The notes under the pieces are model-generated. The model had not been told where the DNA came from and searched no databases. It worked only from the letters and a program-made list of their open reading frames with translations. DNA of 64,000 nt from an uncultured virus (IMG/VR IMGVR_UViG_3300025881_000012). Taxonomy: Duplodnaviria; Heunggongvirae; Uroviricota; Caudoviricetes. Shown here piece after piece: positions 540 through 43,920 of the stretch (its first letter is position 1; each line of letters begins with the position of its first letter). The stretch is from IMG/VR virus record IMGVR_UViG_3300025881_000012; one strand, given 5' to 3'. The translations under genes were made by a program, and so were the position numbers.

Positions 540-1626
<1,087 letters not shown>

Positions 1627-1643
<17 letters not shown>

Positions 1644-3413: not shown

Positions 3414-3941
3414 TTAACTAGTAGTATTTGACTCCCAATATTGGAAATCAAACGTTGTGGTAAATGTCTCTACTTCACCACCGTTATCATAGGTCAATTC
3501 AATCGGTCCAACTGCCGTTGGAAAAGCACCGCGAATATTGTACCGTTTGATAACAGACTCATCTCTATCTAACTGATCAATAATGAGATCGGTTTGATAG
3601 TCTGTTGGATTGGTCAAGCCAGTGTTTGCACTGTGACCGTTCATACCGTTCATCCAACGCTCCATAGCATCACGAACCTCAAAGCCAGTATCGTTTAAGA
3701 TAGTAACTTCCCAAGGCTCAAACGTTCTGTCGCCAGCCACTTTCAGAATTCTGCCTCTGAAAGGTACGTTTAATGCAGGAATGGTAGAACCTGGTAACTG
3801 CCCAGCCCGACACATGAAGGATGTTAGTTCAACATCACCCCCTGCGTATGCGGGAAAGTTAATGGTCGCTTTGAATAAATTCGGTCGCGCACCACCACCT
3901 CGCAGTTTTGATTTAAAGTCATCGACTCCTAAAATTGCCAT
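3414..3941 (-). CDS. gp19: Tail tube protein
   Basis: GGARPNLF, VPFRGRILKVAGDRTFEPWEVTILND motifs; follows gp18. Confidence 0.96.
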   Translation of the reverse strand: MAILGVDDFKSKLRGGGARPNLFKATINFPAYAGGDVELTSFMCRAGQLPGSTIPALNVPFRGRILKVAGDRTFEPWEVTILNDTGFEVRDAMERWMNGMNGHSANTGLTNPTDYQTDLIIDQLDRDESVIKRYNIRGAFPTAVGPIELTYDNGGEVETFTTTFDFQYWESNTTS

Positions 3942-17965: not shown

Positions 17966-17973
17966 TATTTATA
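17966..17973 (-). promoter_or_regulatory. T4-type late promoter TATAAATA for gp13-15
   Basis: Exact consensus overlapping the peptidase stop codon, about 23 nt upstream of gp13. Confidence 0.75.
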
Positions 17974-28400: not shown

Positions 28401-30754
28401 TATTCGGTAGTTGTCAACCCTGTTGTTGTTATTTCTACTTCATTGAGAAGAAGACTGGACGTGTCACCTTCTTCAATCACCGTGGTGATGATTGCTATGA
28501 GTTCATCTACCCGAGCATCTTCGGTGACACCAACGAGGGCTTTGATGTCTGTAGCCAAATTGTTGTATGCCGCAATCGTTACTTTCTCTTCGCCAGCACC
28601 TAACTGAGATACAGCACCGACATAATAAGCAAATGCCGCCTGTCTTGTTGCTGTGTTACCACCGTACAGTAAGTCTGCCACCAAGCCGTCAATGATAAAG
28701 CCTGTGTCTGCCTCACATGCCGCTTGGTCGTAAGTAAATGTAGGATACGTAGTTGAAACAAATGACGTTAAGTTGTTGACAAGAGTAGTTCTTGATGTTA
28801 TAATATTTGCTGATTGCGTGGCTCTACCTGCCACCGATGCATAATCGCCTGCTGTTGGATACGTGATCGCTGTAATTGGAGTGGTAACTGTGCCGTCAAT
28901 AACATCAATAACACGCTCAAATAAAGTATCAAGTGTGGTCTGCTGAACTGAACTGAAAACATTGGTTGCTGGGATTCCATTCTGTAGTGTCTTAACAGTG
29001 TCTCTTGCGAACTTTACTGCTTCAATAGTAGCATAATTCTGTTCAGATTTCAAGTATGCTGTATTCGCACGAAGATATGAGTTACCTGCGGTAATCGTCC
29101 AGTAGTCTGTTCCTAAAATAAAGTCTCTTCGGACGGCATCGAGAATAATACCTACATCTCGTGAACACTTACCAGCATCGTATGACTTGATATTAGTGTT
29201 CTTGATTGCCCAGTTATCATCCACATACTCAATTGTATCATCTTCAATCGTAGACTTGTTGGTTAGAATTATCGTTCTTTCGCTGAGAACACCACTGAGA
29301 TAACCATCTAGATCAATCGCAACAGGTGCCGACAAACCAGTCAGATCACCCGCAGTAATAACACCCGTGATTTCGTCTATCAGAGCACCGATATCAGTTT
29401 GCTCAGGTGCGGTAGTAACAACAACATTAATTCGTGTTTTTAGATCATTATAAGCCGCAATTGTGGCAGTGCCTTCACCAAAGCCTAACTGTGACTCTGT
29501 GCCAACAAAGTAAGCCTCTGCGTTTACTCGTGTTCCACCATTACCACCGTACTTGACATCGTGCGCTAAAGCATCTATAATATAACCAACGTCTCTTTCA
29601 CATGCCGCTGAGTCGTAGTCTAAAGTAGGATAGTTGGCAGTAATATATGCCGTAGTGTCTGATACAAGAGTCGCACGATTTGTTATCAGTGCCGCACTTG
29701 CCGTAATTCTATCAGCCGTTTGATACGTAGCAGTACCAGTCGTAGGATATGTTGGAGCAGGATAAGTTGTCGTTGTTCCATTGACAACATTAATTACCCG
29801 ATCAAAGAACGTAGCAATAAGCGCATCACTTGGTACACCAACAAGAGACTGTACTTGACCCTTCGCAAACTCTAATGCCGCCACAGTCATTTCAAACTGA
29901 TCACTCAACACATAGGCAGAGTTTGCACGAAGATATGCATTTGCGGCAGTAATAGTTCTATAGTCAGACGTTGTTATCAGATCATCCACGACTGCATCAA
30001 GAATCAATCCTATATCTCTTTCGCATTTAGCAGAGTCATAAGGATCTAGATTGGCATTGTTCAGATAGGACAGTACAGCATCTTGAATCGCCGCTCTGTT
30101 CTCTTGAAGAATTTGTGATGCATTGTTTGCGTCTGTCTGTGACTCTATAGGTGGATTTGTAAAGTAATAATCATCAGGCTCACCGTCATAGAAAATGTCA
30201 ATAAGTTCTGTAAAGCCTGCACCTACTCGTGCTGTTGCAGTTGGATTTGATGCCACCAGAGGCGCTGATAACATGCCAACACGTTCTTCATTGATTGCTC
30301 GGCGAGTCTGATACTTCTGTTCAGTTGTTACTTTGCCGGCGTTGCCTCTTTTATATGCGAGTCCAGCATTAACAGAGTTAAAGTTTGTTTCTAATACCAT
30401 GTCATAACGGACAGCGTCCATGATTAACTGCGTGTCACGTTCACACGTAATTTTATCAAACTTAAAGCCTTGCTTGGTCAACACAGTGGCAACAGCCGAG
30501 TCTAGTGTCTTCATTGAGTTCATCAATGATCGACCGTCGTTACCGTAAACTCCTGATTTAGAGACGTAATAAACATTCTCAACCTGTTCAGAACCGATTG
30601 ATTCTATTGTTACCTCACCGTTTTGATCGCGCTTGATAAACGCCTTGCCATCATGCGTATTGATAGCAATTTCACCGTAATCAATCTCGTTGACCGTCGG
30701 TGCTCGGTTAGGAATATCGCTTCTAGGCAATAATATTTTTTTACGTGCTGCCAT
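22433..30754 (-). CDS. Giant virion protein (2773 aa): fibre-type N-terminus, 12 helical Cys-containing repeats, beta-helix region, FG-GAP-like propeller
   Basis: GEIAINTHDGKAFIK start; 12 copies of [YF]D..[KA]C.RD.G.I.DA; SPYVQNCT and SMVLDAFTQFNAGG beta-helix motifs; repeated FG...S..G.YLAV.A...GAVY.F.R. Confidence 0.8.
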   Translation of the reverse strand: MAARKKILLPRSDIPNRAPTVNEIDYGEIAINTHDGKAFIKRDQNGEVTIESIGSEQVENVYYVSKSGVYGNDGRSLMNSMKTLDSAVATVLTKQGFKFDKITCERDTQLIMDAVRYDMVLETNFNSVNAGLAYKRGNAGKVTTEQKYQTRRAINEERVGMLSAPLVASNPTATARVGAGFTELIDIFYDGEPDDYYFTNPPIESQTDANNASQILQENRAAIQDAVLSYLNNANLDPYDSAKCERDIGLILDAVVDDLITTSDYRTITAANAYLRANSAYVLSDQFEMTVAALEFAKGQVQSLVGVPSDALIATFFDRVINVVNGTTTTYPAPTYPTTGTATYQTADRITASAALITNRATLVSDTTAYITANYPTLDYDSAACERDVGYIIDALAHDVKYGGNGGTRVNAEAYFVGTESQLGFGEGTATIAAYNDLKTRINVVVTTAPEQTDIGALIDEITGVITAGDLTGLSAPVAIDLDGYLSGVLSERTIILTNKSTIEDDTIEYVDDNWAIKNTNIKSYDAGKCSRDVGIILDAVRRDFILGTDYWTITAGNSYLRANTAYLKSEQNYATIEAVKFARDTVKTLQNGIPATNVFSSVQQTTLDTLFERVIDVIDGTVTTPITAITYPTAGDYASVAGRATQSANIITSRTTLVNNLTSFVSTTYPTFTYDQAACEADTGFIIDGLVADLLYGGNTATRQAAFAYYVGAVSQLGAGEEKVTIAAYNNLATDIKALVGVTEDARVDELIAIITTVIEEGDTSSLLLNEVEITTTGLTTTEYDVILSETPDIQTATLAFVDKTFIPELPDYDQVKCYRDVGLILDAVKRDLITGSTYNTITAGFSYLRANASYVQSDQLEKTLKGINYARDEVKKLVGASDASIDILFARVTDVLNGIVTTYETPTYTAPGGTHDGSLGGDRITAVSNLQTNRSAAVTALIDYIDLEYPALEYDTNKCKRDAGYIIDAICHDLLYSGNTAARQNAASYYVGSVSQLGPFETTATVAGYEQFKSILSTYTTGLDTTIITEIQASLDIIIDVIEDGNLDNLPAEVEISTAGLTSTDFDAITTATLQIQDDTILFINDLFFNPAYDQAKCARDIGLIVDALSLFIIAGSEAPDRFVALSYRRPSAQNVYLKQRAATLAAVNYAEDLLKTALTNGGGDPLKTNDPFDRIREGINAGVYTSGVDRAWVNPNTSLYTGTVGGVDSTGSTANTIAAQNTLNLQNNAYADAVINYVNNTLGITSFDNTICKEDLIILLQALAYDVDTGTNWCIRQFAESYFTGVVNALGNDSAEIEATIAAYEYLKTYLTTNLPLDANLAQGTDQTASILAYITGEIDIVIDAIKADTTQNMPALVLPSTIGEDATDIAGFNAVQTAKTQTQNAVIDFVNDSNPVDAFDDEKCARDSLLIIDAICLDIQNQTNYNSITAGLAYQRGNANKVQSDQLKYTILAINYLRDLINGTPSIDSTTKTYVTARTLEITDLLTQSTEYGKVDGDPISYNTTNVVLDKVNAANALRANRRQLQKQITTWIQVNYDTFEYDPDACERDIGYIVDGLVHDILYDGQYAAETIARSYWVETDLNIENNPNQSENLDGVADTYKNQLGQNEVVTTAAAYAQLKAFINQIVTTTTEQSAIGNLMDIIIDSITASDNTAIPSTPISFLNDPLLIQAQKTIYKDQTVLYANQIFPAYTYNQSKCRRDVGFILDALTYDIKYGGNSATSIAMRSYFSIFNNGYGDLLGQNEFTMTIKAYRHLKRNILKNYFETLDAGIETTKNNLLDIILKAIIQTNQGTFTLGNFFGADRSLDLYQYNYPTGLAVGYDSQTFPDLIALGHKVTYNALYLAHQEFNVGASERLTIVRATNAVANNQGTDTTIFLKSGDYVINNPIKLPPKTAIIGDALRTTTIRPKNVDSDIFWADNGVYIKEITFRDHQDGAAVLAFDPRVDSPGAGPFITQSPYVQNCTSLTSSGIGLRIDGSKVSGLRSMVLDAFTQFNAGGTGVYLLNRGYSQLVSLFTVSTTTSVLAETGGQCSLTNSNSSFGERGLVATGGSPSLYNGDLHANYIQNDDFIRVNGVITQDSADYTLNLGDYKKPNYNDAIKFDSDNFYYTILNVSDEITQDWGTTGNTTESTTLKQTNTVNLTKYGSSVHMSSNDLYAAVGQSATLPGELAAVEIRKSDIVGGIPQWDFVQTINPAVAFGTNTTSDIDFGYETRLNEDGSYLAVSAPSQKNVDGSGGAQNNGAIYMFRRSGESWTQDSIVNLAEVADRSRFFGRSFDMSESGLYLAASTVNDVSPASAGAVYVFQRTAPASSSWSQTQRITIPDGTGANAGEPEVTINDDGADLLIQWKNSLTNKIYYYQKNIDNVFILAQVIIPRSNVGANGRDSKIRLGKNTTHFVMGDKNAPRGYFTNIQTDSDLGGQLQYARKQKLDQATLSGTLLSTTDVDRWINFTTDFPTNTVVTIEGAGANDGDYTITDRTSNTLSVTPAFTPGGNFTDVQVYIQNTGVSEFFLFDEGQWVTEDIIEAPYDAVKDFGYGYDVDINTRGDLVAVGNNPNVNSIKNEVSVIERARSDWRRISRLEPLTPANAASIGNDEYGGSGHSVAVGGTGDYILIGAQDRRSDQGDANTQFGAFFEYWSILDETGSYEIELAPALNRNLKSLQNVSFHQRSLITASGHTFEYVGSGTNMFTAIPQNGGVPKKQNEIQFDSADAATPNFGLVYFTATDERGDFRIGEDLTINREQGNITGVTFDRSLFAVMTPFILALEG
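25150..30470 (-). repeat. Twelve roughly 140-160 aa protein repeats with invariant Cys (C-x-[R/A/E]-D)
   Basis: Cores: TCERD, KCERD, ACERD, KCSRD, ACEAD, KCYRD, KCKRD, KCARD, ICKED, KCARD, ACERD, KCRRD. Confidence 0.9.
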
Positions 30755-31961: not shown

Positions 31962-32312
31962 TTACTCAGTGACAGAAGGAGAAACGGTTATTTTCCCCTG
32001 TAGAACTCTCTCCACAACTACTGGATCGGAGCCCACAGATATTTCTACATCATATACATAACGTTTTTTAGGATTTAATGCCTGAGATTCTGTATTGGTA
32101 AGTGATAGATTTACTATGCCATCTGTTGCGGGTGATCCTATCGCGGCAGTGAAGGCGATCTTTTCACCCGCTGGCGCATCATACCTGGTAGCCATGGAAG
32201 CGGCAGCGGTGTGTGCAGTGAGGTCTTTCTTAGTGCCGTCTGGATTAACCAAGTAGATTTCTATTGCAACATCTGTGCCTTGATCTATCGTTAGATCTTC
32301 ATAGTGTGCCAT
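31962..32312 (-). CDS. Small Ig-like virion protein (BppU-N-like)
   Basis: LTIDQG..., DLTAHTA, RYVYDVEI, RVLQGKITVSP pattern. Confidence 0.65.
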   Translation of the reverse strand: MAHYEDLTIDQGTDVAIEIYLVNPDGTKKDLTAHTAAASMATRYDAPAGEKIAFTAAIGSPATDGIVNLSLTNTESQALNPKKRYVYDVEISVGSDPVVVERVLQGKITVSPSVTE

Positions 32313-34218: not shown

Positions 34219-37200
34219 TTAAGCGACTCTACACCAGAGAGTCCATATCTCGTAAGTCACGGGCGGCTGTAACAGATTGTCTCTATCGCCGTATACACCA
34301 GAATAAAACTCAGTACCGCTGTATGTACTAGTGTATATAGCACCCTCGTAAGGCAGTTCTTTATCAAGAGGATTGAGATTATTACCGCCTGCGCCAGGCG
34401 CGCCTTCAAATATTCCACTGTAACCAGAATCATAGACACTAGTGTAACCCGCACCATCATATGATGCCCCATCATAGTTGGCTGTAATAATATCACCACC
34501 GTACTCACCCACATAAGCCGATTCATACAGTGCTTCATACTCAGAATCATATGCCGCATCATAGAGACCTGTGTAAGTTGTCTCATAACTACCAGTATAA
34601 CCTATTGCATCGTAAGTTGCAACATATATTCCTACATAAGTGGATTGATATGACGGTATATAAAAGCCAGTATATGTTCCGAGATATGATGACTCATACT
34701 CAGAGGTATATGCTGAAGAGTAGTCACTGGTATATGTCGTCTCATAAATCTCACCGTCATAAGATTCTATAGATTCTCTCTCATAAAATCCAGTGTATTC
34801 TTCAGGCGATTCACGAGTGTACAAGCCTTCGTAAGTAGTGTCCTGTGATCGCTCATAAAATCCAGTGTACGTTATCCCTTCGGTTCGTTCGTACAAGCCT
34901 TCATAAGTAATATCCTGCTGTCGCTCATAGAGACCAGTGTATGTGATCTCTTGAGTTCTTTCGTAAGCACCTGAGTAGGTGATATCCTGCTGTCGTTCAT
35001 AAAGACCCTCGTAAGTTATGTTTTGAGTACGACCGTAGATACCTTCGTAAGTTATTTCCTGCGTTCTTTCGTAAGCACCAGAGTAAGTGATGTCTTGCTG
35101 TCGTTCATAAAGACCCTCGTAAGTTATGTTTTGAGTACGACCATACAGACCCTCATAAGTGATCTCTTGAGTTCGCTCATACAAACCTTCATAGGTTATC
35201 TCTTCGGTTCTTTCATATAAGCCTTCATAGGTTATTTCTTCGGTTCTTTCATAAGCACCTGTGTAGGTGATATCTTGTTGTCTTTCATAGAGACCTTCAT
35301 ACGTTATGTTCTGCTGTCTCTCATAAAGGCCTTCATACGTTATACCTTGAGTTCGTTCATACAAACCAGTGTATGTGATATCTTGTTGTCTCTCATAGAG
35401 ACCCTCATAGGTAACTTCTTCACTTCTTTCGTATAATCCAGTGTAAGTTATATCCTGCTGGCGTTCGTATAATCCAGTGTAAGTTATATCCTGCTGGCGT
35501 TCATACAAACCAGTGTATGTGATATCTTGTTGTCTCTCATAGAGACCCTCATAAGTAATGTCTTGTTGCCGCTCATATAATCCGGTGTACGTAGTGTCTT
35601 GTTGCCGCTCATAGAAACCTTGATAGGTAATATCTTGCTGACGTTCGTACAAGCCAGTGTATGTAATGTCTTGTTGACGTTCATAGAAACCTTCGTAGGT
35701 TATACCTTGAGTTCTTTCATACAGACCTGTGTACGTTATCTCTTCTGTTCGTTCGTATAATCCAACGTATGTGATGTCCTGTTGACGTTCGTACAAACCT
35801 TCATAAGTTATGTCTTGTTGTCTTTCGTACAAGCCGGTGTACGTTATCTCTTCTGTTCGTTCGTAAGCGCCTTCATAAGTGATATCCTGTTGACGTTCAT
35901 ACAAGCCTTCATAAGTAATATCCTGCTGGCGTTCGTACAAACCTTCATAAGTTATGTTTTGAGTACGACCGTAGATACCTTCGTAAGTTATTTCCTGTGT
36001 TCTTTCGTAAGCGCCTTCATAAGTGATGTCCTGTTGACGTTCATAAAGACCCTCGTAAGTGATATCCTGCTGGCGTTCGTATAAGCCCGAGTAGGTGATA
36101 TCTTGTTGTCTCTCATAGAGACCTTCATATGTGATATCTTGCTGGCGTTCGTACAAGCCTTCATAAGTAATATCCTGCTGGCGCTCATACAATCCAGTGT
36201 ATGTGATATCCTGCTGGCGTTCATAAAGACCTTCATACGTTAGATCCTGCTGTCTTTCATAAAATCCCGTGTACGTTATACCTTGAGTTCTTTCGTAAAG
36301 TCCAGTATAAGTGATCTCTTGAGTTCGCTCATACAATCCAGTGTAGGTAATATCTTGCTGGCGTTCGTAAAGACCTTCGTATGTGATATCCTGTTGACGT
36401 TCGTACAAGCCCTCATAGGTAGCATCTTGTTGACGTTCGTAGAAGCCCGTGTATGTAATATCCTGTTGACGTTCATAGAGTCCAGTGTATGTAATATCCT
36501 GCTGGCGTTCGTAGAGACCTTCGTATGTGATGTCCTGTTGACGTTCATACAAGCCTTCATAGGTAATATCCTGTTGGCGTTCATATAAGCCTTGATATCC
36601 TATGGTCTGACTTCTTTCGTAAAGCCCTTGGTATGTAATGTCTTGTTGACGTTCATACAAGCCCTGGTAAACAACACTCTCTTGTCGTTCGTATTCTCCA
36701 ACGTAAGTAATAGATTGAGTTCTTTCATAAAAGCCCTCATAGCCACCAATGAAGTCGCGTGAATACTGACCAACAAAGTTTCGAGAGTATTGACCAATGT
36801 AATTACCACCGAACTGCCTACTATACGTACCAGTGAAGTTTCGTGCGTATTGTCCAGTATAAGTGCCTTCAAAGTTTCGTGTATACGTACCAGTGAAGTT
36901 TCGGGCGTATTGACCAGTATAAGTGCCTTCAAAGTTTCTTGAATACTGTCCTACAAAGTCTCTAACATATTGACCCGTATACGAACCTTCAAAGTTTCTT
37001 GAATAGTTACCAGTGAAGTTTCGTGCGTATTGTCCAGTATAAGTGCCTTCAAAGTTTCGTGCATATTCACCTGTAAAATCTCGTGCGTATTGACCAGTAT
37101 AAGTGCCTTCAAAGTTTCGTGCATACTGTCCTACAAAGTTTCGAGAGTATTGACCAATGTAATTACCACCGAACTGCCTACTATACGTACCTGCAAAGTT

Positions 37201-40200
37201 TCTACTATACGCACCAGTATATTGTCCAGCAAAGTTGTTTGAATACTGTCCTATGAAGACTCTTGAATACGAACCTAAATATGAACCAGAAAAGTTGTTT
37301 AAATAGTTGCCTAGAAAGTTTCGTGCGTAGTTGCCGGTGTATTGACCAAAAAACTGTCTTGCATAGTTACCCGCAAAGTTTCTACTATACTGACCAATAT
37401 AAGTGCCTTGAAAGTTTCTGGCATAATTACCAAGAAAGTTTCTAGCGTAGTTACCGGTGTATTGACCAGAAAAGTTGTTTAGATAGTTACCCGCAAAGTT
37501 TCTACTATACTGACCAGTATATTGACCAGCAAAGTTGTTTAGATAGTTACCCGCAAAGTTTCGTGCGTAGTTGCCAGTATATTGTCCCGCAAAATTGTTT
37601 AAATAATTACCCGCAAAGTTTCTACTATACTGACCAGTATATTGACCAGCAAAATTGTTTAAATAGTTACCTGCAAAGTTTCTAGCGTAGTTACCGGTGT
37701 ATTGACCAGCAAACTGACGAGAATAGTTACCAGTAAAGTTTCGGGTGTATGCGCCAAGATAATTACCAGCAAAGTTTCTACTATACTGACCAAGAAAGAA
37801 TCTGGCATAGCCGCCAACGTAAGCGCCAGCGAAGTTTCTGGCATAGTTACCTAAGAAGTTTCGAGCATAGTTACCAGCATATGTACCCGCAAAGTTTCTG
37901 GCATAGTTACCTGCAAAGTTTCTGGCATAGTTGCCGGTATACTGACCGGCGAAGTTTCTGGCATAATTACCCGCAAAGTTTCTGGCGTAGTTACCGGTAT
38001 ACTGACCAGCAAAGTTTCTGGCATAATTACCCGCAAAGTTTCTAGCGTAGTTACCGGTGTATTGACCAGAAAAGTTTCTACTATACTGACCAGTATATTG
38101 TCCAGAAAAGTTTTGGCTCGTAGTTGACTGTGCAAAGAAATTGATACCAAATGATGTTCCTACGGGGTTATCAAAACTGTCAGTCCAACCTCCGAATGGG
38201 TACGGCACTGACCACGTCCAATTGGTCAGAGGGCTGGGCCCGAAGGGTGGGGTACTCACAAAATAACCGCCGGCGGGTCCACTACCAAAACTGGGAGAAG
38301 TATATAAGTTCTTTGTGGGGCTTGAGTAAGGTCCTGTCGGATGAGTACCACTTGCACCTACTATCTGAACACGAGTAAAGGTGAACTGAGGGTGAGTACC
38401 CCCCGCCGATACCCTGATTATGGGCAGGTTCTGCGGCGCGCCGATTGGTACAAATTTACTAAAATTATACATGGTGACAGATGGAATACCAAACGAAAAC
38501 GATGATGGACTAATAGATCCAGAGCCGCCACCGAACATATAACCATATTCATCGGACACATAAGGGTTGGGGGTCAAGCCGATAGTTATTGTAGCACTGC
38601 CTGCAGGCGTATTGTTGTTAGTAATATTTCTACTATACTGACCAGTATATTGTCCAGAAAAGTTTCTACTATACTGACCAGTATATTGACCCGCAAAGTT
38701 TCGAGCGTAGTTGCCTAAAAAGTTTCTAGCGTAGTTACCGGTGTATTGTCCAGCGAAGTTTCTGGCATAGTTACCTAAAAAGTTTCTGGCATAGTTACCA
38801 GTATACTGACCAGCAAAGTTTCTGGCATAGTTACCAGTAAAGTTTCCTGCGTAGTTGCCCGTATATTGACCAGTAAAGTTTCTGGCATAGTTACCAGCAA
38901 AGTTTCGTGAGTAGTTGCCCACATAAGCGCCTAGAAAGGTTCGAGCATAGAAACCAGTAAAGTTTCGGGCATAGTTACCAAGATAATTACCCAAAAACTC
39001 TCGCGCGTATTGACCAGCAAAGTTTCTGGCATAATTGCCGGTATACTGACCAGCGAAGTTTCGTGCGTAGTTGCCTAGAAAGTTTCGAGAGTATGTGCCA
39101 GTGTATTGACCAGAAAAGTTTCTGGCATAATTACCAAGAAAGTTTCGGGAGTATGTGCCAGTGTATTGTCCAGCAAAGTTTCGTGAGTAGTTACCAAGAA
39201 AGTTTCGAGAGTATGTCCCAGTGTATTGACCAGAAAAGTTTCTGGCATAATTACCAAGAAAGTTTCGGGAATAGGTACCAGTATATGTACCCGCAAAGTT
39301 TCTGGCATAGTTACCCGCAAAGTTTCTACTATACTGACCAACATAACTTCCTTCAAAGTTTCGTGCGTAGTTGCCTAGAAAGTTTCTACTATACGCACCA
39401 GTATACTGACCAGCGAAGTTGTTTAGATAGTTACCCGCAAAGTTTCGCGAGTATGTGCCTATATAATTGCCTTCAAAGGCCCGAGAATAACTTCCTTCAA
39501 AGTTTCGTGCGTATGTGCCCGTGTATTGACCAATAAAGGCTCGTGCGTATTGACCAACAAAGTCTCGTGAGTATTGACCACCATAGGTACCTTCAAAGTT
39601 TCGACTATAAGTGCCTGCAAAGTTTCTACTATACTGACCAACATAACTTCCTTCAAAGTTTCTTGAATATACGCCTGCAAAGTTTCGAGAATACTGCCCT
39701 ATATAATTGCCTTCAAAGTTTCGTGCATACTGCCCCGCAAACAATCGTGAATACTGTCCGATGTAGGTGCCTTCAAAGTTTCGACTAAAAGTGCCTGCAA
39801 AGTTTCTAGCATATTGACCAATATAATTGCCTTCAAAGTTTCTTGAATACTGCCCTACAAAGTCTCTAGCGTATTGACCAATATAATTGCCTTCAAAGTT
39901 TCTTGAATACTGCCCTACAAAGTCTCGTGAGTACTGACCGCCATAAGTGCCTTCAAAGTTTCGGCTATAAGTGCCTTCAAAGTTTCTTGAGTAAGTTCCA
40001 AAGTAAGTTTCGGGTACTTGACCGGTATATTCTGCTGAATATGGTTTAGATATTTGACCTTCATATTGAGCCAAGTAGTTTTCTGGTACTTGACCTATGT
40101 AAGAGCCAACATAATCTTCAGGAACTTGACCAATGTACTCAGCACCATAAACTTCTTCTACCTGACCAACATAAGACGTTGTGTATTGTTCGGGTACTTG

Positions 40201-43200
40201 ACCAACATATGCTGTTGTGTATTGCTCAGGAATCTGACCAACATAAGCACCGACATAATCTTCGGGCACTTGACCGACATATGATGTTGTGTAATCTTCC
40301 TCTATCTGTCCAACATAAGCGCCAATATATTGCTCAGGAATCTGACCAACATAAGACGTTGTGTATTGCTCAGGAATCTGACCGACATATGCGCCTACAT
40401 AATCTTCAGGAACTTGGCCAGTATATGCGCCAACATAATCTTCGGGTACTTGACCCGTGTAACCTGTTGTGTAAAACTCTTCTATTTGACCGACGTAAGC
40501 ACCAACATATTGTTCTGGCACTTGACCAACATAAGCACCGACATAATCTTCGGGTACTTGACCGACATATGATGTTACATATTGTTTTGCTATTTGACCA
40601 ATGTATGCACCCACATATTGCTCGGGCACTTGTCCAACGTAAGCAGTTGTGTAATATTCCTCTACCTGACCAACATAAGACGTTGTGTATTGCTCGGGCA
40701 CTTGTCCAACGTAAGCGCCAACATATTGTTCTGGTACTTGACCTGTATATGCACCAACATATTGTTCAGGAACACCACCGGTGTAAGCAGTTTCATACTG
40801 TTCGGGTACTTGACCGACATAAGCACCGACATAATCTTCGGGCACTTGACCGACATAAGATGTTACATATTGCTCGGGTACTTGACCAGTATATGCACCA
40901 ACATAATCTTCGGCTATTTGACCAACGTAAGATGTTGCATATTGTTCTGCTATTTGACCGACATATGCGCCTACATAATCTTCAGGAACTTGACCAGTAT
41001 ATGCGCCAACATAATCTTCGGGTACTTGACCCGTGTATCCAGTCGTATATTGTTCTGCTATCTGACCAACGTAAGCGCCAACATAATCTTCTTCTATCTG
41101 ACCGACATAAGCGCCAACATAATCTTCTTCTATCTGACCGACATAAGCGCCAATATAATCCTCGGGTACTTGACCTACGTAAGATGTCGCATATTGTTCT
41201 GCTATCTGACCAACATATGATCCAACATAATCTTCGGGTATTTCACCTTGATATGCACCAACATAATCTTCGGGTATCTGACCGATATAAGAGCCGACAT
41301 AATCTTCGGGTATCTGTCCAGAGTATGCCCCAACATATTGCTCGGGTACTTGACCGATGTATGCGCCAACATAATCTTCGGGTACTTGACCCGTGTAACC
41401 TGTTGTGTATTGTTCGGGTACTTGACCGATGTATGCGCCAACATATTGCTCAGGCACTTGACCAACATAAGCAGTTGTATAATCTTCCTCTACCTGACCA
41501 ACATAAGCACCGACGTACTGTTCGGGTACTTGACCAGTGTACGCTCCTACATATTGCTCAGGCACTTGACCTGTGTATGCACCGACATATTGCTCAGGCA
41601 CTTGACCTGTATATGCTGTTTCATATTGTTCTGGCACTTGACCCACGTAAGCAGTGGTATAGTCTTCTATGACTTGACCAGTGTATGCACCGACATATTG
41701 TTCAGGAACACCACCGGTGTAAGCAGTTTCATACTGTTCGGGTACTTGGCCAACATAAGACGTGGTATAGTCTTCTATGACTTGACCGGTGTATGCACCC
41801 ACATAATCTTCAGCAATCTGTCCAGCATATCGTGTGGTATATTGTTCAGGCACTTGACCAGTATATGTCGTTGCGTAAGACTCTTCAACTTGTCCGACGT
41901 AAGTGGCAATATATTGTTCAGCAATATCGCCTTCATAGAATCCTTCATAGGTCTCTTCTATTTGACCTGTGTAAATTCCTTCATAAGTAGACTCGTATCC
42001 AGTTGTATAACTGGAATCATAGGTGGTTGTATAGGTTGAATCATACACTGTACCCGTATAGAATTGTTGCTCATAGACTTCCTCAACAGGTAAACCTTCA
42101 TACTTGTCAGAGAAAAACTCTACATCAATTGCGCCGTCATACTGACCAAGATATGATCCTTCATATGAAGTTGTATAGAGTGCCTCATACACAGACACAT
42201 ATTCGGAGATGTACGAACCCGTGTATCCTGAAATGTATTCACCGACATATGAACCTTCATACTCTGTAGTGTATGTACCTACATAAGAGGCGATATACTC
42301 TGATTCATATTCACTAACATAAATGCCCTCATATGAAGCCACATAAGTGCCGATATAGGTTGCCTGATATTCAGACTCATATTGGAATTCTTCGGTCCGA
42401 TCACCCTCATAGCCACCCGCAAAGTCATAATTTAATCGCGAGTCAACGGCTTTGCCTCTGGGTTGCCATACACCAGTATCTGTGGGAGCACCTTGCGCAC
42501 TGCTTCTTAACTGATAGGTACCAATGCCCGTGTCCATAATGACTTTTTTAGATCGTTCACCTAAAGTGAAGTCAATCTGAGGTACAGTCATCTCTTGCAA
42601 TGCTTCAAATACATTATCGTTCTTGCGTTTGATTGCAAGTGGTCTTATTTCTGTCGGTACTATATCTGAAGTCTTGATGTATATGCTGTATGTTATCGCA
42701 GTACCGTCTGACCGAGTATCAGTAAAGATGTTTTCAAGATAGGCTGTGTAGTCAGCACTAGGCGCTTCGTTGGAGAGTCTGTACGTACCAGGTCTTTCAT
42801 TCTGCATAATGTTAGAAATGACTCGTGCGCACATCACTTCTAGTTCATTATCATTCATTTCTTTCAGACCGTTTCTCACACGATCAAAATAAACTGGATT
42901 TCTTTTCTCACTACTTGTCTGAAGAGGTATTTGATTGTTGTTTTGGTATAGCGGATGAGATATGGTGCTTGCGCCAGGCGCATTTCTATCTTCTACCCGT
43001 GTTGTTCCAACAAAAGAAGAACTTACCTGTGCGGGTGTGTTTTCAGAATCTTGTGATGATACATCAAGAGTCGCTTGAAAGAGGCCAACGTTCTGAGTAA
43101 ATGATATCTCATATGTTGCGGTGAACTGACCCTTTAAACGTGGATTGGTAAACTTCTCCCAGGTGACAACATTACCATTAATATTTGATGCGGCAGGTGT

Positions 43201-43659
43201 CGCAGTGACATTAGTGACAATATAAGCGGGACTGGTATTAAACGTTAAACTGGCTTGAAGTTCTTCAAACCCATTGCCCGTAGGTGCAGTTTCGGTATCA
43301 AAGATGACATTGATAATAATCGTATCATCATCATAACATAACGGTGGAAACTCAACGGGATTTCTAAATGTATTGGTATGACCACCACCTACGGACCTAA
43401 CATCTACTGTATAGTTTCGTGTTCTTGTAACAGGTGGATCACTCGCCGCATTCTCATCATAGAAGGTATCAATGTACGTACCAACGTCCACACTGTTCGC
43501 TGTTTGACCAGATGTGAGTGAACTTGCTTCAGTGGTGGTAATATTACTTAGATATAGACCCGCACGATAGGCTAACCAATCTTCTTCGGATACCAGAAAT
43601 TCTTTGACCGCACCATCATTGGCTAAAGAATTTGAAAATCTAAAAGGTCTTGAAGACAC
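34219..43659 (-). CDS. Giant Tyr-rich repeat protein (3146 aa), putative hairpin fibre
   Basis: Single 9.4 kb ORF (GTG start) behind a late promoter; about 410-aa N-domain, repeat arm, central unique domain, mirrored repeat arm. Confidence 0.9.
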   Translation of the reverse strand: MSSRPFRFSNSLANDGAVKEFLVSEEDWLAYRAGLYLSNITTTEASSLTSGQTANSVDVGTYIDTFYDENAASDPPVTRTRNYTVDVRSVGGGHTNTFRNPVEFPPLCYDDDTIIINVIFDTETAPTGNGFEELQASLTFNTSPAYIVTNVTATPAASNINGNVVTWEKFTNPRLKGQFTATYEISFTQNVGLFQATLDVSSQDSENTPAQVSSSFVGTTRVEDRNAPGASTISHPLYQNNNQIPLQTSSEKRNPVYFDRVRNGLKEMNDNELEVMCARVISNIMQNERPGTYRLSNEAPSADYTAYLENIFTDTRSDGTAITYSIYIKTSDIVPTEIRPLAIKRKNDNVFEALQEMTVPQIDFTLGERSKKVIMDTGIGTYQLRSSAQGAPTDTGVWQPRGKAVDSRLNYDFAGGYEGDRTEEFQYESEYQATYIGTYVASYEGIYVSEYESEYIASYVGTYTTEYEGSYVGEYISGYTGSYISEYVSVYEALYTTSYEGSYLGQYDGAIDVEFFSDKYEGLPVEEVYEQQFYTGTVYDSTYTTTYDSSYTTGYESTYEGIYTGQIEETYEGFYEGDIAEQYIATYVGQVEESYATTYTGQVPEQYTTRYAGQIAEDYVGAYTGQVIEDYTTSYVGQVPEQYETAYTGGVPEQYVGAYTGQVIEDYTTAYVGQVPEQYETAYTGQVPEQYVGAYTGQVPEQYVGAYTGQVPEQYVGAYVGQVEEDYTTAYVGQVPEQYVGAYIGQVPEQYTTGYTGQVPEDYVGAYIGQVPEQYVGAYSGQIPEDYVGSYIGQIPEDYVGAYQGEIPEDYVGSYVGQIAEQYATSYVGQVPEDYIGAYVGQIEEDYVGAYVGQIEEDYVGAYVGQIAEQYTTGYTGQVPEDYVGAYTGQVPEDYVGAYVGQIAEQYATSYVGQIAEDYVGAYTGQVPEQYVTSYVGQVPEDYVGAYVGQVPEQYETAYTGGVPEQYVGAYTGQVPEQYVGAYVGQVPEQYTTSYVGQVEEYYTTAYVGQVPEQYVGAYIGQIAKQYVTSYVGQVPEDYVGAYVGQVPEQYVGAYVGQIEEFYTTGYTGQVPEDYVGAYTGQVPEDYVGAYVGQIPEQYTTSYVGQIPEQYIGAYVGQIEEDYTTSYVGQVPEDYVGAYVGQIPEQYTTAYVGQVPEQYTTSYVGQVEEVYGAEYIGQVPEDYVGSYIGQVPENYLAQYEGQISKPYSAEYTGQVPETYFGTYSRNFEGTYSRNFEGTYGGQYSRDFVGQYSRNFEGNYIGQYARDFVGQYSRNFEGNYIGQYARNFAGTFSRNFEGTYIGQYSRLFAGQYARNFEGNYIGQYSRNFAGVYSRNFEGSYVGQYSRNFAGTYSRNFEGTYGGQYSRDFVGQYARAFIGQYTGTYARNFEGSYSRAFEGNYIGTYSRNFAGNYLNNFAGQYTGAYSRNFLGNYARNFEGSYVGQYSRNFAGNYARNFAGTYTGTYSRNFLGNYARNFSGQYTGTYSRNFLGNYSRNFAGQYTGTYSRNFLGNYARNFSGQYTGTYSRNFLGNYARNFAGQYTGNYARNFAGQYAREFLGNYLGNYARNFTGFYARTFLGAYVGNYSRNFAGNYARNFTGQYTGNYAGNFTGNYARNFAGQYTGNYARNFLGNYARNFAGQYTGNYARNFLGNYARNFAGQYTGQYSRNFSGQYTGQYSRNITNNNTPAGSATITIGLTPNPYVSDEYGYMFGGGSGSISPSSFSFGIPSVTMYNFSKFVPIGAPQNLPIIRVSAGGTHPQFTFTRVQIVGASGTHPTGPYSSPTKNLYTSPSFGSGPAGGYFVSTPPFGPSPLTNWTWSVPYPFGGWTDSFDNPVGTSFGINFFAQSTTSQNFSGQYTGQYSRNFSGQYTGNYARNFAGNYARNFAGQYTGNYARNFAGNYARNFAGQYTGNYARNFAGNYARNFAGTYAGNYARNFLGNYARNFAGAYVGGYARFFLGQYSRNFAGNYLGAYTRNFTGNYSRQFAGQYTGNYARNFAGNYLNNFAGQYTGQYSRNFAGNYLNNFAGQYTGNYARNFAGNYLNNFAGQYTGQYSRNFAGNYLNNFSGQYTGNYARNFLGNYARNFQGTYIGQYSRNFAGNYARQFFGQYTGNYARNFLGNYLNNFSGSYLGSYSRVFIGQYSNNFAGQYTGAYSRNFAGTYSRQFGGNYIGQYSRNFVGQYARNFEGTYTGQYARDFTGEYARNFEGTYTGQYARNFTGNYSRNFEGSYTGQYVRDFVGQYSRNFEGTYTGQYARNFTGTYTRNFEGTYTGQYARNFTGTYSRQFGGNYIGQYSRNFVGQYSRDFIGGYEGFYERTQSITYVGEYERQESVVYQGLYERQQDITYQGLYERSQTIGYQGLYERQQDITYEGLYERQQDITYEGLYERQQDITYTGLYERQQDITYTGFYERQQDATYEGLYERQQDITYEGLYERQQDITYTGLYERTQEITYTGLYERTQGITYTGFYERQQDLTYEGLYERQQDITYTGLYERQQDITYEGLYERQQDITYEGLYERQQDITYSGLYERQQDITYEGLYERQQDITYEGAYERTQEITYEGIYGRTQNITYEGLYERQQDITYEGLYERQQDITYEGAYERTEEITYTGLYERQQDITYEGLYERQQDITYVGLYERTEEITYTGLYERTQGITYEGFYERQQDITYTGLYERQQDITYQGFYERQQDTTYTGLYERQQDITYEGLYERQQDITYTGLYERQQDITYTGLYERQQDITYTGLYERSEEVTYEGLYERQQDITYTGLYERTQGITYEGLYERQQNITYEGLYERQQDITYTGAYERTEEITYEGLYERTEEITYEGLYERTQEITYEGLYGRTQNITYEGLYERQQDITYSGAYERTQEITYEGIYGRTQNITYEGLYERQQDITYSGAYERTQEITYTGLYERQQDITYEGLYERTEGITYTGFYERSQDTTYEGLYTRESPEEYTGFYERESIESYDGEIYETTYTSDYSSAYTSEYESSYLGTYTGFYIPSYQSTYVGIYVATYDAIGYTGSYETTYTGLYDAAYDSEYEALYESAYVGEYGGDIITANYDGASYDGAGYTSVYDSGYSGIFEGAPGAGGNNLNPLDKELPYEGAIYTSTYSGTEFYSGVYGDRDNLLQPPVTYEIWTLWCRVA
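34770..36730 (-). repeat. About 54 tandem 36-nt coding repeats (YERQQDITYEGL)
   Basis: Visible in DNA and translation; synonymous variation between copies. Confidence 0.95.
36730..38115 (-). repeat. Tetrapeptide-based repeats Y[SA]RN-FxGx-YxGx, C-terminal inner arm
   Basis: Aromatic residue every 4th position in the translation. Confidence 0.95.
38625..40000 (-). repeat. Tetrapeptide-based repeats Y[SA]RN-FxGx-YxGx, N-terminal inner arm
   Basis: Same unit and nearly the same length as 36730-38115. Confidence 0.95.
40000..41980 (-). repeat. About 55 tandem 36-nt coding repeats (YxGQVPE[QD]YVGA)
   Basis: Visible in DNA and translation. Confidence 0.95.
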
Positions 43660-43689: not shown

Positions 43690-43697
43690 TATTTATA
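43690..43697 (-). promoter_or_regulatory. T4-type late promoter TATAAATA for the giant-repeat operon
   Basis: Exact consensus about 31 nt upstream of the GTG start at 43659. Confidence 0.75.
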
Positions 43698-43920
43698 AGT
43701 TTTTGGTGAGCAGTGTGAGCAGATCTTTTATATCTTTCATATCCGTCTCCATACTACTCAGGCGAGTCTCTATTAATTCTTGCTTTTGAGATTGTTTTTG
43801 ACGGGCTAATTTCTTAGCCCGGGCTAGTTCTACCTTTTTAACATCTACATTTAATATTGTATTGGTTTCGGTGTCGCGAACTAGCCCGGGATATCCTCGA
43901 ACTTCAATTAGATCCCTCAT
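43693..43920 (-). CDS. Small coiled-coil protein (75 aa)
   Basis: VRGYPGLVRD..T.TILN plus heptad C-terminus; coupled to the upstream gene by TAATG overlap. Confidence 0.8.
   Translation of the reverse strand: MRDLIEVRGYPGLVRDTETNTILNVDVKKVELARAKKLARQKQSQKQELIETRLSSMETDMKDIKDLLTLLTKNL

What the first reader, a model, noticed from the sequence alone, without database searches (positions are those of the whole stretch)
34219..43659. 3146-aa protein with mirror-image, register-matched repeat arms: a candidate giant self-pairing hairpin fibre
Seen: the layout is N-domain | Yxxx block | about 55 x YxGQVPEQYVGA | YSRNF block | unique ~170-aa domain | YSRNF block | about 54 x YERQQDITYEGL | Yxxx block | short C-tail. 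Each arm is about 1270 aa. Rare variants are mirrored exactly about nt ~38365. YETAYTGG occurs at 41707 and 40771 (936 nt apart), and YEGIYGRTQN occurs at 35025 and 35961 (936 nt apart). The single YETAYTGQ and the single YEGLYGRTQN each lie 108 nt inward of the outer copy. YGGQYSRDF occurs at 39921 and 39561 (360 nt apart), and YSRQFGGN at 36801 and 37161 (360 nt apart). The outer arms differ in sequence, so this is not a DNA inverted repeat. Inference: the chain runs out and back as an in-register antiparallel beta structure with aromatic ladders and displays the central domain at the tip. If fully extended (about 0.33 nm per residue) it would be roughly 400 nm long. Repeat gains and losses 3-7 kb apart must have been matched between the arms.
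Basis: partly seen in the sequence, partly recalled or inferred. Interest (0 to 1): 0.93.

Follow-up and report, generated by a model that had tools for sequence, protein, structure and literature searches.

The report
Giant fold-back tyrosine-repeat phage fibre
A 3,146-residue protein in the tail genes of an uncultured marine T4-like phage has two 1,260-residue repeat arms that match residue for residue when one is read backwards, so the chain most likely runs out to a small tip domain and back along itself as one extremely long, thin fibre.

Summary
ORF 34219..43659 (-) encodes 3,146 aa with an aromatic residue every 4th position over about 2,500 aa. The two arms covary along one anti-diagonal, i + j = 3526. 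This register is found independently in the 12-residue blocks and in the YSRNF blocks. Cross-arm pairs are chemically sensible (Q·E, D·T, V·Q, T·T, G·G, R·R, Y·F). There is no DNA inverted repeat and no repeated 75-mer. Four IMG/VR assemblies from different samples give the same 3,146 aa.

A 91 %-related contig has both YSRNF blocks longer by 76-77 aa. A distant homologue mirrors its 10/14-residue unit lengths 12 of 12 and 6 of 6. AlphaFold2 with a family alignment puts two long paired strands at the base of a 420-aa homologue, in the predicted register.

Best reading: a single-chain out-and-back beta hairpin fibre on a conserved base, with a variable tip. It belongs to a large family (279 clusters) that matched nothing in Pfam, PHROGs or solved structures, and my paper searches found no description. 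The closest known design is the far shorter T4 gp37 needle. Oligomeric state and real length are open. Other windows of this scan have reported the same family.

The parts
34219..43659 (-). Whole gene, 3,146 codons plus stop, GTG start
   Evidence: The same protein is encoded on four IMG/VR contigs.
43690..43697 (-). TATAAATA, a T4-type late-promoter-like motif about 30 nt upstream of the start
   Evidence: The window has 10 matches against 3.8 expected; 9 are on the - strand. That TATAAATA is the T4 late-promoter consensus is recalled.
42412..43659 (-). N-terminal base domain, aa 1-416. The family-conserved core is about aa 232-408, ending in GIGTYQLRSSAQGAP...GVW
   Evidence: 279 representative proteins match at E<=1e-3. 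The AlphaFold2 model of homologue P0088 has pLDDT >90 over the base. No Pfam or PHROG family matches.
41914..42411 (-). N-arm outer irregular Yxxx block, aa 417-582, acidic
   Evidence: The register is not resolved here; both sides have bulges.
40006..41913 (-). N-arm block of 53 twelve-residue units (YVGAYxGQVPEQ type), aa 583-1218
38626..40005 (-). N-arm YSRNF block, aa 1219-1678, 23 units of 20 residues (4+8+8), basic
38113..38625 (-). Unique central domain, aa 1679-1849, centred on the mirror point aa 1763; the proposed distal tip
   Evidence: No phage tblastn hit. No convincing match by sequence to a solved structure: only two chance-level hits, E 0.03-0.06. The relative L012 keeps it at 100 of 170 identical residues.
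36742..38112 (-). C-arm YSRNF block, aa 1850-2306, pairing antiparallel with the N-arm YSRNF block
   Evidence: Pairs at i+j=3526: Y·F 45, F·Y 45, Y·Y 23, F·F 1, R·R 37, G·G 69.
34762..36741 (-). C-arm block of 55 twelve-residue units (YEGLYERQQDIT type), aa 2307-2966
34219..34761 (-). C-arm outer irregular Yxxx block and conserved C-terminal strand (..TYEIWTLWCRVA; the family motif is ETYTLYVRxA), aa 2967-3146, plus stop
   Evidence: In the P0088 model the equivalent strand 386-418 lies beside strand 256-286.

Best explanation
The gene encodes a late-expressed virion fibre of an uncultured marine T4-like myovirus.

Proposed fold. The chain starts in a conserved base domain of about 400 aa. 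It runs about 1,260 residues outward as an extended strand with an aromatic residue every fourth position. It then forms a 171-aa tip domain and returns antiparallel, so that residue i lies opposite residue 3526 - i. The conserved C-terminal strand closes the hairpin against the last strand of the base.

The two faces of the ribbon. One face is invariant: Y·Y, G·I, Y·Q, G·R, V·Y and E·G in the proximal half, and Y·F, R·R and G·G in the distal half. The other face varies, but only as matched pairs (Q·E or D·T, V·Q or T·T, G·G or S/A·D). The sequence differences among units therefore act as a register key that disfavours slipped pairing.

Evolution and function. Length changes by gains and losses that are matched in the two arms. 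The variable tip is the likely host-binding end. If the ribbon is fully extended, it reaches about 0.4 micrometre.

Shown: the covariation, its register, the matched block lengths in a relative, and the absence of a DNA palindrome.
Inferred: intra-chain rather than inter-chain pairing, beta conformation along the whole length, attachment to the baseplate, host binding, and the length.
For: (1) Anti-diagonal covariation. The unit-level mutual-information peak is at one mirror register, z = 11 against permutation. The residue-level maximum at i+j=3526 appears in two independent block types.

(2) Pair tables over 53 unit pairs. N column 12 against C column 2: Q·E 25, D·T 15, D·E 1, Q·T 0. N column 6 against C column 8: V·Q 25, T·T 16, I·Q 5, V·T 1, T·Q 0. 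All six even columns covary along the anti-diagonal. That is a two-residue alternation, as in a beta ladder.

(3) The unit-to-unit distance matrices of the two arms correlate only at this register. Mantel r is 0.35 for DNA and 0.43 for protein, with 0 of 2,000 permutations as high; other registers give <=0.19.

(4) Preferred pairs number 86 of 106 at the cognate register, against 44-53 of 98-106 after slips of 1-4 units.

(5) The relative L012 has YSRNF blocks of 536 and 534 aa, against 460 and 457 here. Its aromatic alignment runs unbroken over about 600 residues at a single sum.

(6) The distant homologue P0005 has unit-length strings (10 or 14 residues) that are mirrored 12 of 12 and 6 of 6, between blocks of different sequence type.

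(7) Of 87 full-length family members, 27 have their best base register at exactly one of 65 offsets from the two conserved anchor motifs. In 63 of 87 the offset is in the same phase modulo 4.

(8) AlphaFold2 with a 70-sequence alignment on the 420-aa homologue P0088 gives strands 256-286 and 386-418, with pLDDT 80-98 at the base. The end sums are 672-674, against 672 predicted from sequence. Homologues such as P0088 and P0105 join the arms by a turn of a few residues.

(9) Context. The gene sits between baseplate-wedge genes and tail-fibre-like genes and is preceded by TATAAATA.
Against: - There is no experimental structure.
- AlphaFold2 on the window's own aa 1525-2001, without an alignment, gave long helices at mean pLDDT 47. 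That is uninformative rather than supportive.
- In the P0088 model the distal 100 residues of the hairpin have pLDDT <50. I had no coordinates, so strand pairing is read from the DSSP ranges only.
- Covariation cannot separate a hairpin from two chains lying antiparallel.
- Crude family-wide tests are weak. The aromatic-pattern mirror centre fell within +/-8 of the expected place in only 14 of 87 members (3.5 expected). Mirror beat direct comparison in only 43 of 87. The composition and boundary measures gave 11 of 87 and 13 of 82 near the centre.
- The outer Yxxx blocks of this protein do not follow i+j=3526. The base register expected from the family anchors is 14 residues off, so bulges must be assumed.
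- Both proximal blocks are acidic: 87 acidic against 3 basic residues, and 134 against 55. A bare ribbon would need counter-ions.
- In the YSRNF blocks the aromatic pattern alone fits equally well at every shift of 20 residues.
- One predicted partner change was not seen when an N-arm contig (L007) was compared with a C-arm contig (L012) from a different sample; the two cannot be linked.
Confidence: 0.72

Rival explanations
1. The arms pair antiparallel, but between chains. The N-arm of one molecule lies against the C-arm of another, as a head-to-tail dimer or a longer staggered assembly. The central domains sit mid-fibre and a base domain sits at each end.
For: It gives exactly the same i+j covariation. 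Nothing in the window's own protein excludes it.
Against: Small homologues join the arms by a turn of a few residues. A monomer AlphaFold2 model closes the hairpin at the base with high confidence. The conserved N-domain end and the conserved C-terminal motif keep a fixed register in 27 of 87 members. A fibre with a baseplate-type domain at both ends has no obvious way to sit on a tail; this last point is inference.
Confidence: 0.12
2. The arms pair, but as a long antiparallel alpha-helical hairpin rather than a beta ribbon.
For: AlphaFold2 without an alignment drew helices 2-135 and 344-475 in aa 1525-2001, with pLDDT 50-74 in those parts.
Against: That model is poor: mean pLDDT 47, pTM 0.23. 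Glycine makes up 14-16 % of the arms, and the N-arm twelve-residue block holds 37 prolines in 53 units. Covariation falls on every second residue of the anti-diagonal, not on a 3.5-4 residue stripe. The aligned model of P0088 gives strands.
Confidence: 0.05
3. The mirror pattern reflects a mutational or recombinational history, or some constraint other than contact, and the arms do not touch.
For: Segmental duplications exist. N units 24-26 resemble units 40-42, and the mirrored C units do likewise.
Against: The arms have different sequences and no inverted DNA repeat. No known process copies changes to a mirrored place 3-7 kb away in a different sequence; that is inference. The pairs are chemically complementary at single-residue resolution. 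The same rule holds in homologues with unrelated unit types.
Confidence: 0.04
4. The symmetry is an assembly artefact of a repetitive region.
For: Short-read contigs laid on the gene do not span the arrays.
Against: The longest exact repeat is 59 nt and no 75-mer recurs. Four IMG/VR contigs from different samples encode the same 3,146 aa, three identical and one with a single substitution. The frame is open throughout. In four runs every one of 30 bins is covered, and three of the runs match at >=99 % in 102 of 107, 93 of 96 and 92 of 92 pieces.
Confidence: 0.02

Closest known systems
Needle of the T4 long-tail-fibre tip, gp37 domains D10-D11 (passages read in PMC6957217; the crystal structure paper itself was not read)
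   Same: It is a fibre part of a T4-like phage whose chain goes out and comes back: D10 is made of residues 811-881 plus 1010-1026, with D11 inserted between them. The receptor-binding tip lies at the turn. Glycine packs against an aromatic residue in the stem (G921 with F970).
   Different: In gp37 the out-and-back part spans only about 130 residues (D11, residues 882-1009), the fibre is an obligate trimer, and its core is held by seven iron ions on histidines. Here the arms are about 1,260 residues each and contain no histidine and no HxH motif. They are built from a four-residue aromatic repeat. There is no sequence match to any solved chain. The oligomeric state is unknown.
The uncharacterised phage family itself, for example Phage C48C1 CDS0201, annotated 'hypothetical protein' (OQ984149.1)
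   Same: It shares the N-terminal base domain, the aromatic-every-fourth arms, the C-terminal ETYTLYVRxA strand, and the gene position after the baseplate wedge genes.
   Different: Members range from about 380 to 3,900 aa, with other unit types and, in some, several inserted globular domains. This is the longest member I saw that has two uninterrupted arms.
Beta-prism domains with a protruding hairpin (MABP domain 3tow; perforin-2 P2 domain 6sb1; MACPF C-terminal parts 8b6v, 2qp2)
   Same: The P0088 model aligns with them over 110-118 residues at Z 5.1-6.1. The model's secondary-structure string reads to me as three similar strand-helix-strand modules. Earlier notes of this scan called the base three-lobed.
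   Different: A Z under 8 may mean only a common arrangement, as the tool's own note says. There is no sequence relation, and these are not fibre proteins.
Triple-stranded beta-helix of T4 gp5C (eight-residue VxGxxxxx repeat; recalled from my own knowledge, not from a call)
   Same: It is a short glycine-containing repeat with a period of eight in a T4-type tail protein.
   Different: There, three parallel chains wind together without folding back. Here the covariation is antiparallel.

Membership tests
Uncharacterised fold-back fibre family (C48C1 CDS0201-like) | Homology of the N-terminal base domain | tested here: met
   phmmer of aa 1-415 finds 279 representatives at E<=1e-3 and 84 at <=1e-30. 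C48C1 matches at 42.6 % over aa 264-408.
Uncharacterised fold-back fibre family (C48C1 CDS0201-like) | Conserved C-terminal strand ETYTLYVRxA at the very end | tested here: met
   Here it reads EIWTLWCRVA, with conservative replacements at the same place.
Uncharacterised fold-back fibre family (C48C1 CDS0201-like) | Arms with an aromatic residue every fourth position, and mirrored blocks | tested here: met
   Of 553 aromatic spacings, 377 are 4 and 115 are 8. Mirror covariation is shown.
T4 gp37 needle (D10-D11) | Sequence relation to gp37, or to the gp12-type collar domain | tested here: not met
   The family profile found no PDB sequence at E<=1. The central domain found only chance-level hits. 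There is no Pfam family.
T4 gp37 needle (D10-D11) | Histidine (HxH) iron sites along the core | tested here: not met
   There are 0 His in either arm and no HxH anywhere in the protein.
T4 gp37 needle (D10-D11) | Out-and-back chain topology with the tip at the turn | tested here: met
   This is inferred from antiparallel covariation centred on the unique domain.
T4 gp37 needle (D10-D11) | Homotrimer forming a six-stranded needle | not testable with these tools
   No tool here measures oligomeric state; it needs SEC-MALS or a structure.
T4 gp37 needle (D10-D11) | Fold similarity to solved fibre structures | tested here: inconclusive
   Foldseek against PDB and BFVD found nothing at E<=1e-3. In the VIA wide search the best Z was 6.1, to non-fibre beta-prism proteins. 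The distal hairpin of the model is of low confidence.
Parallel triple beta-helix or collagen-like fibre repeats | Parallel, in-register chains without fold-back | tested here: not met
   The best direct (parallel) alignment scores below the mirror one: 14.7 against 18.0, 2.05 against 3.95 and 6.2 against 9.6.

The most novel reading that the evidence does not exclude
The protein is a single chain, not a trimer. In this reading it forms a two-stranded beta ribbon about 0.4 micrometre long. Its register is set by a residue-pair code (Q·E/D·T, V·Q/T·T, G·G/S·D, R·R, Y·F). The ribbon grows and shrinks by matched insertions in both strands. Homologues with side arms, such as P0005 and C48C1, would form branched stems. 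That would make it a protein that is built, and evolves, like an RNA stem-loop. It would sit on a base whose three similar modules imitate the threefold socket of an ordinary trimeric fibre.
Probability: 0.3. Interest if true: 0.95.

Novelty: new variant of a known kind. Interest (0 to 1): 0.82.

Why it matters
Phage fibres are usually described as parallel trimers. The only out-and-back design I found described, the gp37 needle, is some 20 times shorter.

A hairpin with 1,260-residue arms would be by far the longest beta hairpin I know of. Its register appears to be encoded in matched residue pairs, and a relative changes both YSRNF blocks together. The pair table is a ready-made set of design rules for long, register-specific beta ribbons, and it gives direct predictions for mutagenesis.

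Ecologically, a fibre several times longer than the tail would enlarge the capture radius of a virus in dilute sea water. The family is common: 279 clusters at 50 % identity. This gene occurs in 20 marine metagenome runs. Yet it carries no annotation in Pfam or PHROGs, and its one GenBank phage record calls it a hypothetical protein.

Tried and rejected
- AlphaFold2 on the window's own arm-tip-arm piece (aa 1525-2001, no alignment) gave helices at mean pLDDT 47, and the tip domain was unmodelled. It is not usable either way.
- Complex prediction with three copies of P0088 residues 240-420 (alignment A1) gave score 0.00 against a mark of 0.42. The verdict was 'no answer', so it says nothing about trimerisation.
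- Foldseek of the P0088 model against PDB and BFVD found nothing at E<=1e-3. The VIA wide search gave only middling Z.
- Pfam on the whole protein gave two hits with no matched stretch (NA-iREase3, DUF1677). I take these to be repeat-composition noise. Pfam and PHROGs on the base, the tip and small homologues gave nothing, apart from one PHROG hit at E 0.007 with no matched stretch.
- The protein atlas returned only 'hypothetical protein' virus clusters.
- Searches for the tip domain found only the same phage: tblastn against phages found nothing, and the metagenome scan found one identical locus.
- Family-wide tests by window composition, block boundaries and a generic 'stem finder' were too noisy, because periodic repeats match at many offsets and paired blocks are often of different type. 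One search was also biased towards the centre by its scoring, so I do not use it.
- I tried to link an N-arm contig (L007) to a C-arm contig (L012) in order to test predicted partner changes. L007 has frameshifts and comes from another sample. One change fitted (G·G to S·D) and one did not, so the result is not usable.
- Logan contigs laid on the gene do not bridge the arrays. A joint skipping 882 nt in run X14 has only 25 letters on its shorter side, so it is not evidence.
- Paper searches found no description of the family. The searches were: cyanophage/tail fiber/repeat/tyrosine; C48C1; gp37/needle domain/antiparallel/tail fiber; T4-like/cyanophage/cryo-EM/baseplate/fiber; phage/fiber/tandem repeat/beta-hairpin/tyrosine/metagenom; giant/tail fiber/marine/myovirus/repeat/hairpin. 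I saw listings and abstracts only, except for passages of PMC6957217.
Full report
**What is there.** The window is the structural module of a T4-like phage. PHROG matches name portal, sheath, tube, terminase, neck and baseplate-wedge proteins, nearly all on the minus strand. The portal is 65.9 % identical to that of Phage C48C1. It is about 50 % identical to those of cyanomyoviruses, Pelagibacter phage Mosig and Methylophilales phage Melnitz. The phage is therefore an uncultured marine myovirus of unknown host.

ORF 34219..43659 (-) is open for 3,146 codons from a GTG. About 30 nt upstream lies TATAAATA, the T4 late-promoter consensus (recalled). The window has 10 copies against 3.8 expected, and 9 of them are on the minus strand. 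The gene lies between an 1,824-aa DUF4815 protein that follows the baseplate wedge genes and a 2,773-aa protein that matches tail-fibre PHROGs.

**Check of the observation.** It has a base domain (1-416), an irregular Yxxx block (417-582) and 53 twelve-residue units of the YVGAYxGQVPEQ type (583-1218). Then come a YSRNF block (1219-1678), a unique domain (1679-1849) and a second YSRNF block (1850-2306). Last are 55 units of the YEGLYERQQDIT type (2307-2966), an irregular Yxxx block and a short tail.
- The arms are 1,262 and 1,260 aa.
- Of 553 spacings between successive aromatic residues, 377 are 4 and 115 are 8.
- All six landmark motifs exist within 1-5 nt of the stated coordinates, with the stated spacings, and are mirrored about aa 1763, nt 38372.

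**Covariation.** I paired each N-arm unit with a C-arm unit, in mirror or in direct order, at 27 shifts each.
- Summed column-by-column mutual information is 18.0 bits at one mirror register. The other 53 alignments average 8.9 (sd 1.7, largest 14.7). A 1,000-fold permutation null gives 8.2 +/- 0.9, largest 12.2.
- Residue by residue, the sum i + j = 3526 is a sharp maximum: 3.95 bits, with the next values 2.51 and 2.18 at the neighbouring even sums. The mean over 145 sums is 0.82 (sd 0.51). The best direct offset gives 2.05.
- The YSRNF blocks have a strict 20-residue period, so their aromatic, Arg and Gly pattern fits equally well at 3526 +/- 20k. Their variable positions nevertheless single out the same sum, 3526: 9.62 bits against 5.0-5.5 at the neighbouring multiples of 20. 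The best direct value is 6.2. Two different block types thus give the same register independently.
- At this register the YSRNF blocks pair Y·F 45, F·Y 45, Y·Y 23 and F·F 1. R·R pairs number 37 against 9 unmatched Arg, and G·G 69 against 7 unmatched Gly.
- In the twelve-residue blocks, N column 12 and C column 2 read Q·E 25, D·T 15, D·E 1 and Q·T 0 of 53. N column 6 and C column 8 read V·Q 25, T·T 16, I·Q 5, V·T 1 and T·Q 0.
- All six even columns covary along the anti-diagonal. The odd columns are invariant (Y·Y, G·I, Y·Q, G·R, V·Y, E·G). This two-residue alternation is what an antiparallel beta ladder gives (inference).
- The matrices of unit-to-unit distances within each arm correlate only at this register. 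Mantel r is 0.35 for DNA and 0.43 for protein, with 0 of 2,000 permutations as high; other registers give <=0.19.
- The unit differences work as a register key. At two informative positions, 86 of 106 pairs are of the preferred type at the cognate register. After slips of 1-4 units the figure is 44-53 of 98-106.

**Trivial explanations.**
- The gene holds no inverted DNA repeat beyond two 16-17-nt pairs. The arms encode different sequences, so this is not a palindrome.
- The longest exact direct repeat is 59 nt and no 75-mer recurs, so reads of ordinary length can place each unit.
- Four IMG/VR contigs from different samples encode 3,146 aa. Three are identical and one differs by R2625H.
- The stretch is held by 20 coded marine metagenome runs, 15 of them with at least half of its words.
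- In four runs laid, all 30 bins are covered. Three runs match at >=99 % in 102 of 107, 93 of 96 and 92 of 92 pieces. These contigs are short and do not span the arrays.

**Relatives.** The base domain defines a large family: 279 representatives at E<=1e-3, 210 at <=1e-10 and 84 at <=1e-30.
- Members run from about 380 to 3,900 aa and end in ETYTLYVRxA. The motif here is EIWTLWCRVA.
- The only record in the phage collection is C48C1 CDS0201, a 'hypothetical protein' of 3,347 aa in the same gene position.

Three kinds of evidence bear on whether the arms change together.
1. Contig L012 is 91 % identical in the C-terminal part. It covers the end of the N-arm, both YSRNF blocks, a diverged tip (100 of 170 residues identical) and the whole C-arm. 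Measured between homologous landmarks, its YSRNF blocks are 536 and 534 aa, against 460 and 457 here. At the single sum 1402 the aromatic positions stay aligned from the last twelve-residue units to the tip. Its C-arm twelve-residue block has 39 units instead of 55. The outer 27 units are collinear and the 16 missing ones lie further in. The matching N-arm part is cut off by the contig end, so that half of the prediction is untested.
2. P0005 is related only in the base and has units of 10 or 14 residues. The string of unit lengths in its N-arm ETNPT block equals the reversed string of its C-arm FILD block, 12 of 12. Its N-arm FILD block matches the reversed C-arm ETNPT block, 6 of 6. Paired blocks can therefore be of different types, as in this protein. 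P0005 also carries about 550 further repeat residues and a globular domain inside the loop, which suggests a side branch (not tested).
3. Across 87 full-length members, I compared the first 64 and the last 64 arm residues. The best aromatic register falls at exactly one offset (-6 from the two anchor motifs) in 27 of 87, out of 65 offsets tried. It falls in the same phase modulo 4 in 63 of 87.

Cruder whole-arm measures are only weakly positive. Fourteen of 87 fall within +/-8 of the expected centre (3.5 expected), and mirror beats direct in only 43 of 87. Searches were similar.

**Structure prediction.**
- Without an alignment, AlphaFold2 drew the window's aa 1525-2001 as two long helices at mean pLDDT 47. 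I set this aside.
- With a 70-sequence family alignment, the 420-aa homologue P0088 gave mean pLDDT 79.5, with more than 90 over the base. Two long strands, 256-286 and 386-418, are confident near the base. The distal residues 286-386 are below 50.
- The strand ends sum to 672-674. The register read from its sequence beforehand was 672.
- The secondary-structure string of the base reads to me as three similar strand-helix-strand modules. The best structural neighbours are beta-prism domains with a protruding hairpin, at Z 5.1-6.1, which is too low to lean on.
- Nothing matched in PDB or BFVD by Foldseek, in PDB by sequence, or in Pfam or PHROGs.

**How it most likely works.** The chain leaves the base, runs out, forms the tip and returns in register, and the C-terminal strand closes the hairpin on the base.
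- Shown: antiparallel residue-level covariation of the arms, centred on the unique domain; matched block lengths in a relative; a conserved base register in the family.
- Inferred: that the pairing is within one chain, from the short-turn homologues and the monomer model; that the conformation is beta throughout; that the base sits on the baseplate and the variable tip binds the host; and a length near 0.4 micrometre, from about 1,260 pairs at about 0.33 nm each.
- The proximal half is strongly acidic and the distal YSRNF half is basic. What that means is open.
- Of the 53 N-arm twelve-residue units, 36 have a proline at column 10, opposite a C-arm residue that is usually Leu (31 of the 36). 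This would be tolerated if the outer edge of that strand is free, a small hint towards a two-stranded ribbon (inference).
- Whether three hairpins bundle as in gp37 is unknown.

**Comparison with what is known.** The closest described design is the T4 gp37 needle. Its D10 is made of residues 811-881 and 1010-1026 with D11 inserted. It is a trimer with seven iron ions on histidines, and a stem glycine packs on a phenylalanine of a neighbouring chain (passages of PMC6957217).
- It works like this protein in topology and in having the tip at the turn.
- This protein is not a member of that family. There is no sequence relation, no histidine in either arm and no HxH motif, a different repeat, and arms some 20 times longer.
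- Six paper searches found no description of the family.

**Earlier notes of this scan.** A word search showed that other windows, from other genomes, had already been read as members of the same family. They were given the same fold-back reading, with gp37 as nearest neighbour. I had reached the hairpin reading before looking (records it). Those notes added the gp37 comparison and the 'three-module base'. They are not independent evidence.

**Verdict.** I rate it a new variant of a known kind: a phage fibre with out-and-back topology, at a scale and with a pairing code that I found described nowhere.

Noticed in passing
window 43693-43920 (-): A 75-aa ORF lies between the 1,824-aa gene and the giant gene. 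Its ATG overlaps the upstream stop (TAATG) and its own stop lies inside the TATAAATA motif. It is rich in Lys, Glu and Leu. Phage C48C1 has a 76-aa 'virion structural protein' directly after its own large baseplate-module gene (4,986 nt, annotated hypothetical).
   Followed up: partly
window, 10 sites (for example 528, 5860, 14978, 17966, 32342, 43690, 50840, 53260, 61677 on the - strand): TATAAATA occurs 10 times against 3.8 expected. Nine are on the minus strand. At least six of these lie within about 40 nt upstream of a listed gene start, as T4-type late promoters would.
   Followed up: partly
window 22433-30754 (-): A second giant protein (2,773 aa) matches several tail-fibre PHROGs in many separate stretches. 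It has no Pfam family.
   Followed up: no
window 17969-19798 (-): A 609-aa protein inside the neck/tail module carries a subtilase (Peptidase_S8) match, E 2.3e-11, over residues 160-541.
   Followed up: no
window 540-1643 (-): A 367-aa protein has strong matches to collagen-like tail-fibre PHROGs. It lies next to the portal gene rather than in the fibre cluster.
   Followed up: no
window 42955-43435 (-), aa ~75-235 of the giant protein: The base domain carries an insertion of about 160 aa that most family members lack. Their match to the query starts at about aa 232 and corresponds to their own residue ~80.
   Followed up: no
P0005 (2,238 aa), P0006, P0007; L001:11668-21711 (C48C1): Some homologues continue for 280-1,190 aa after the ETYTLY motif. 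Others carry several globular domains, each flanked by YSRNF-type arms, as if the fibre were branched. In P0005 about 550 repeat residues and a domain lie inside the loop of the outer stem.
   Followed up: partly
L007:10001-12656: The N-arm of this 90 % relative leaves the reading frame for about 85 codons and then returns to it, displaced by a non-multiple of 12 residues. This is either an error in the assembly or a real defect.
   Followed up: partly
window 34909-35792, run X14: A 2024 marine run holds a 95-99 % variant of the gene. One of its contigs skips 882 nt of the C-arm, but the shorter side of the joint is only 25 letters, so it may be a repeat artefact.
   Followed up: no
window 31962-32312 (-): A 116-aa protein four genes downstream matches PHROGs annotated as L-shaped tail fibre assembly protein. 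The same arrangement follows the giant gene in C48C1. It is a possible chaperone for one of the fibres.
   Followed up: no
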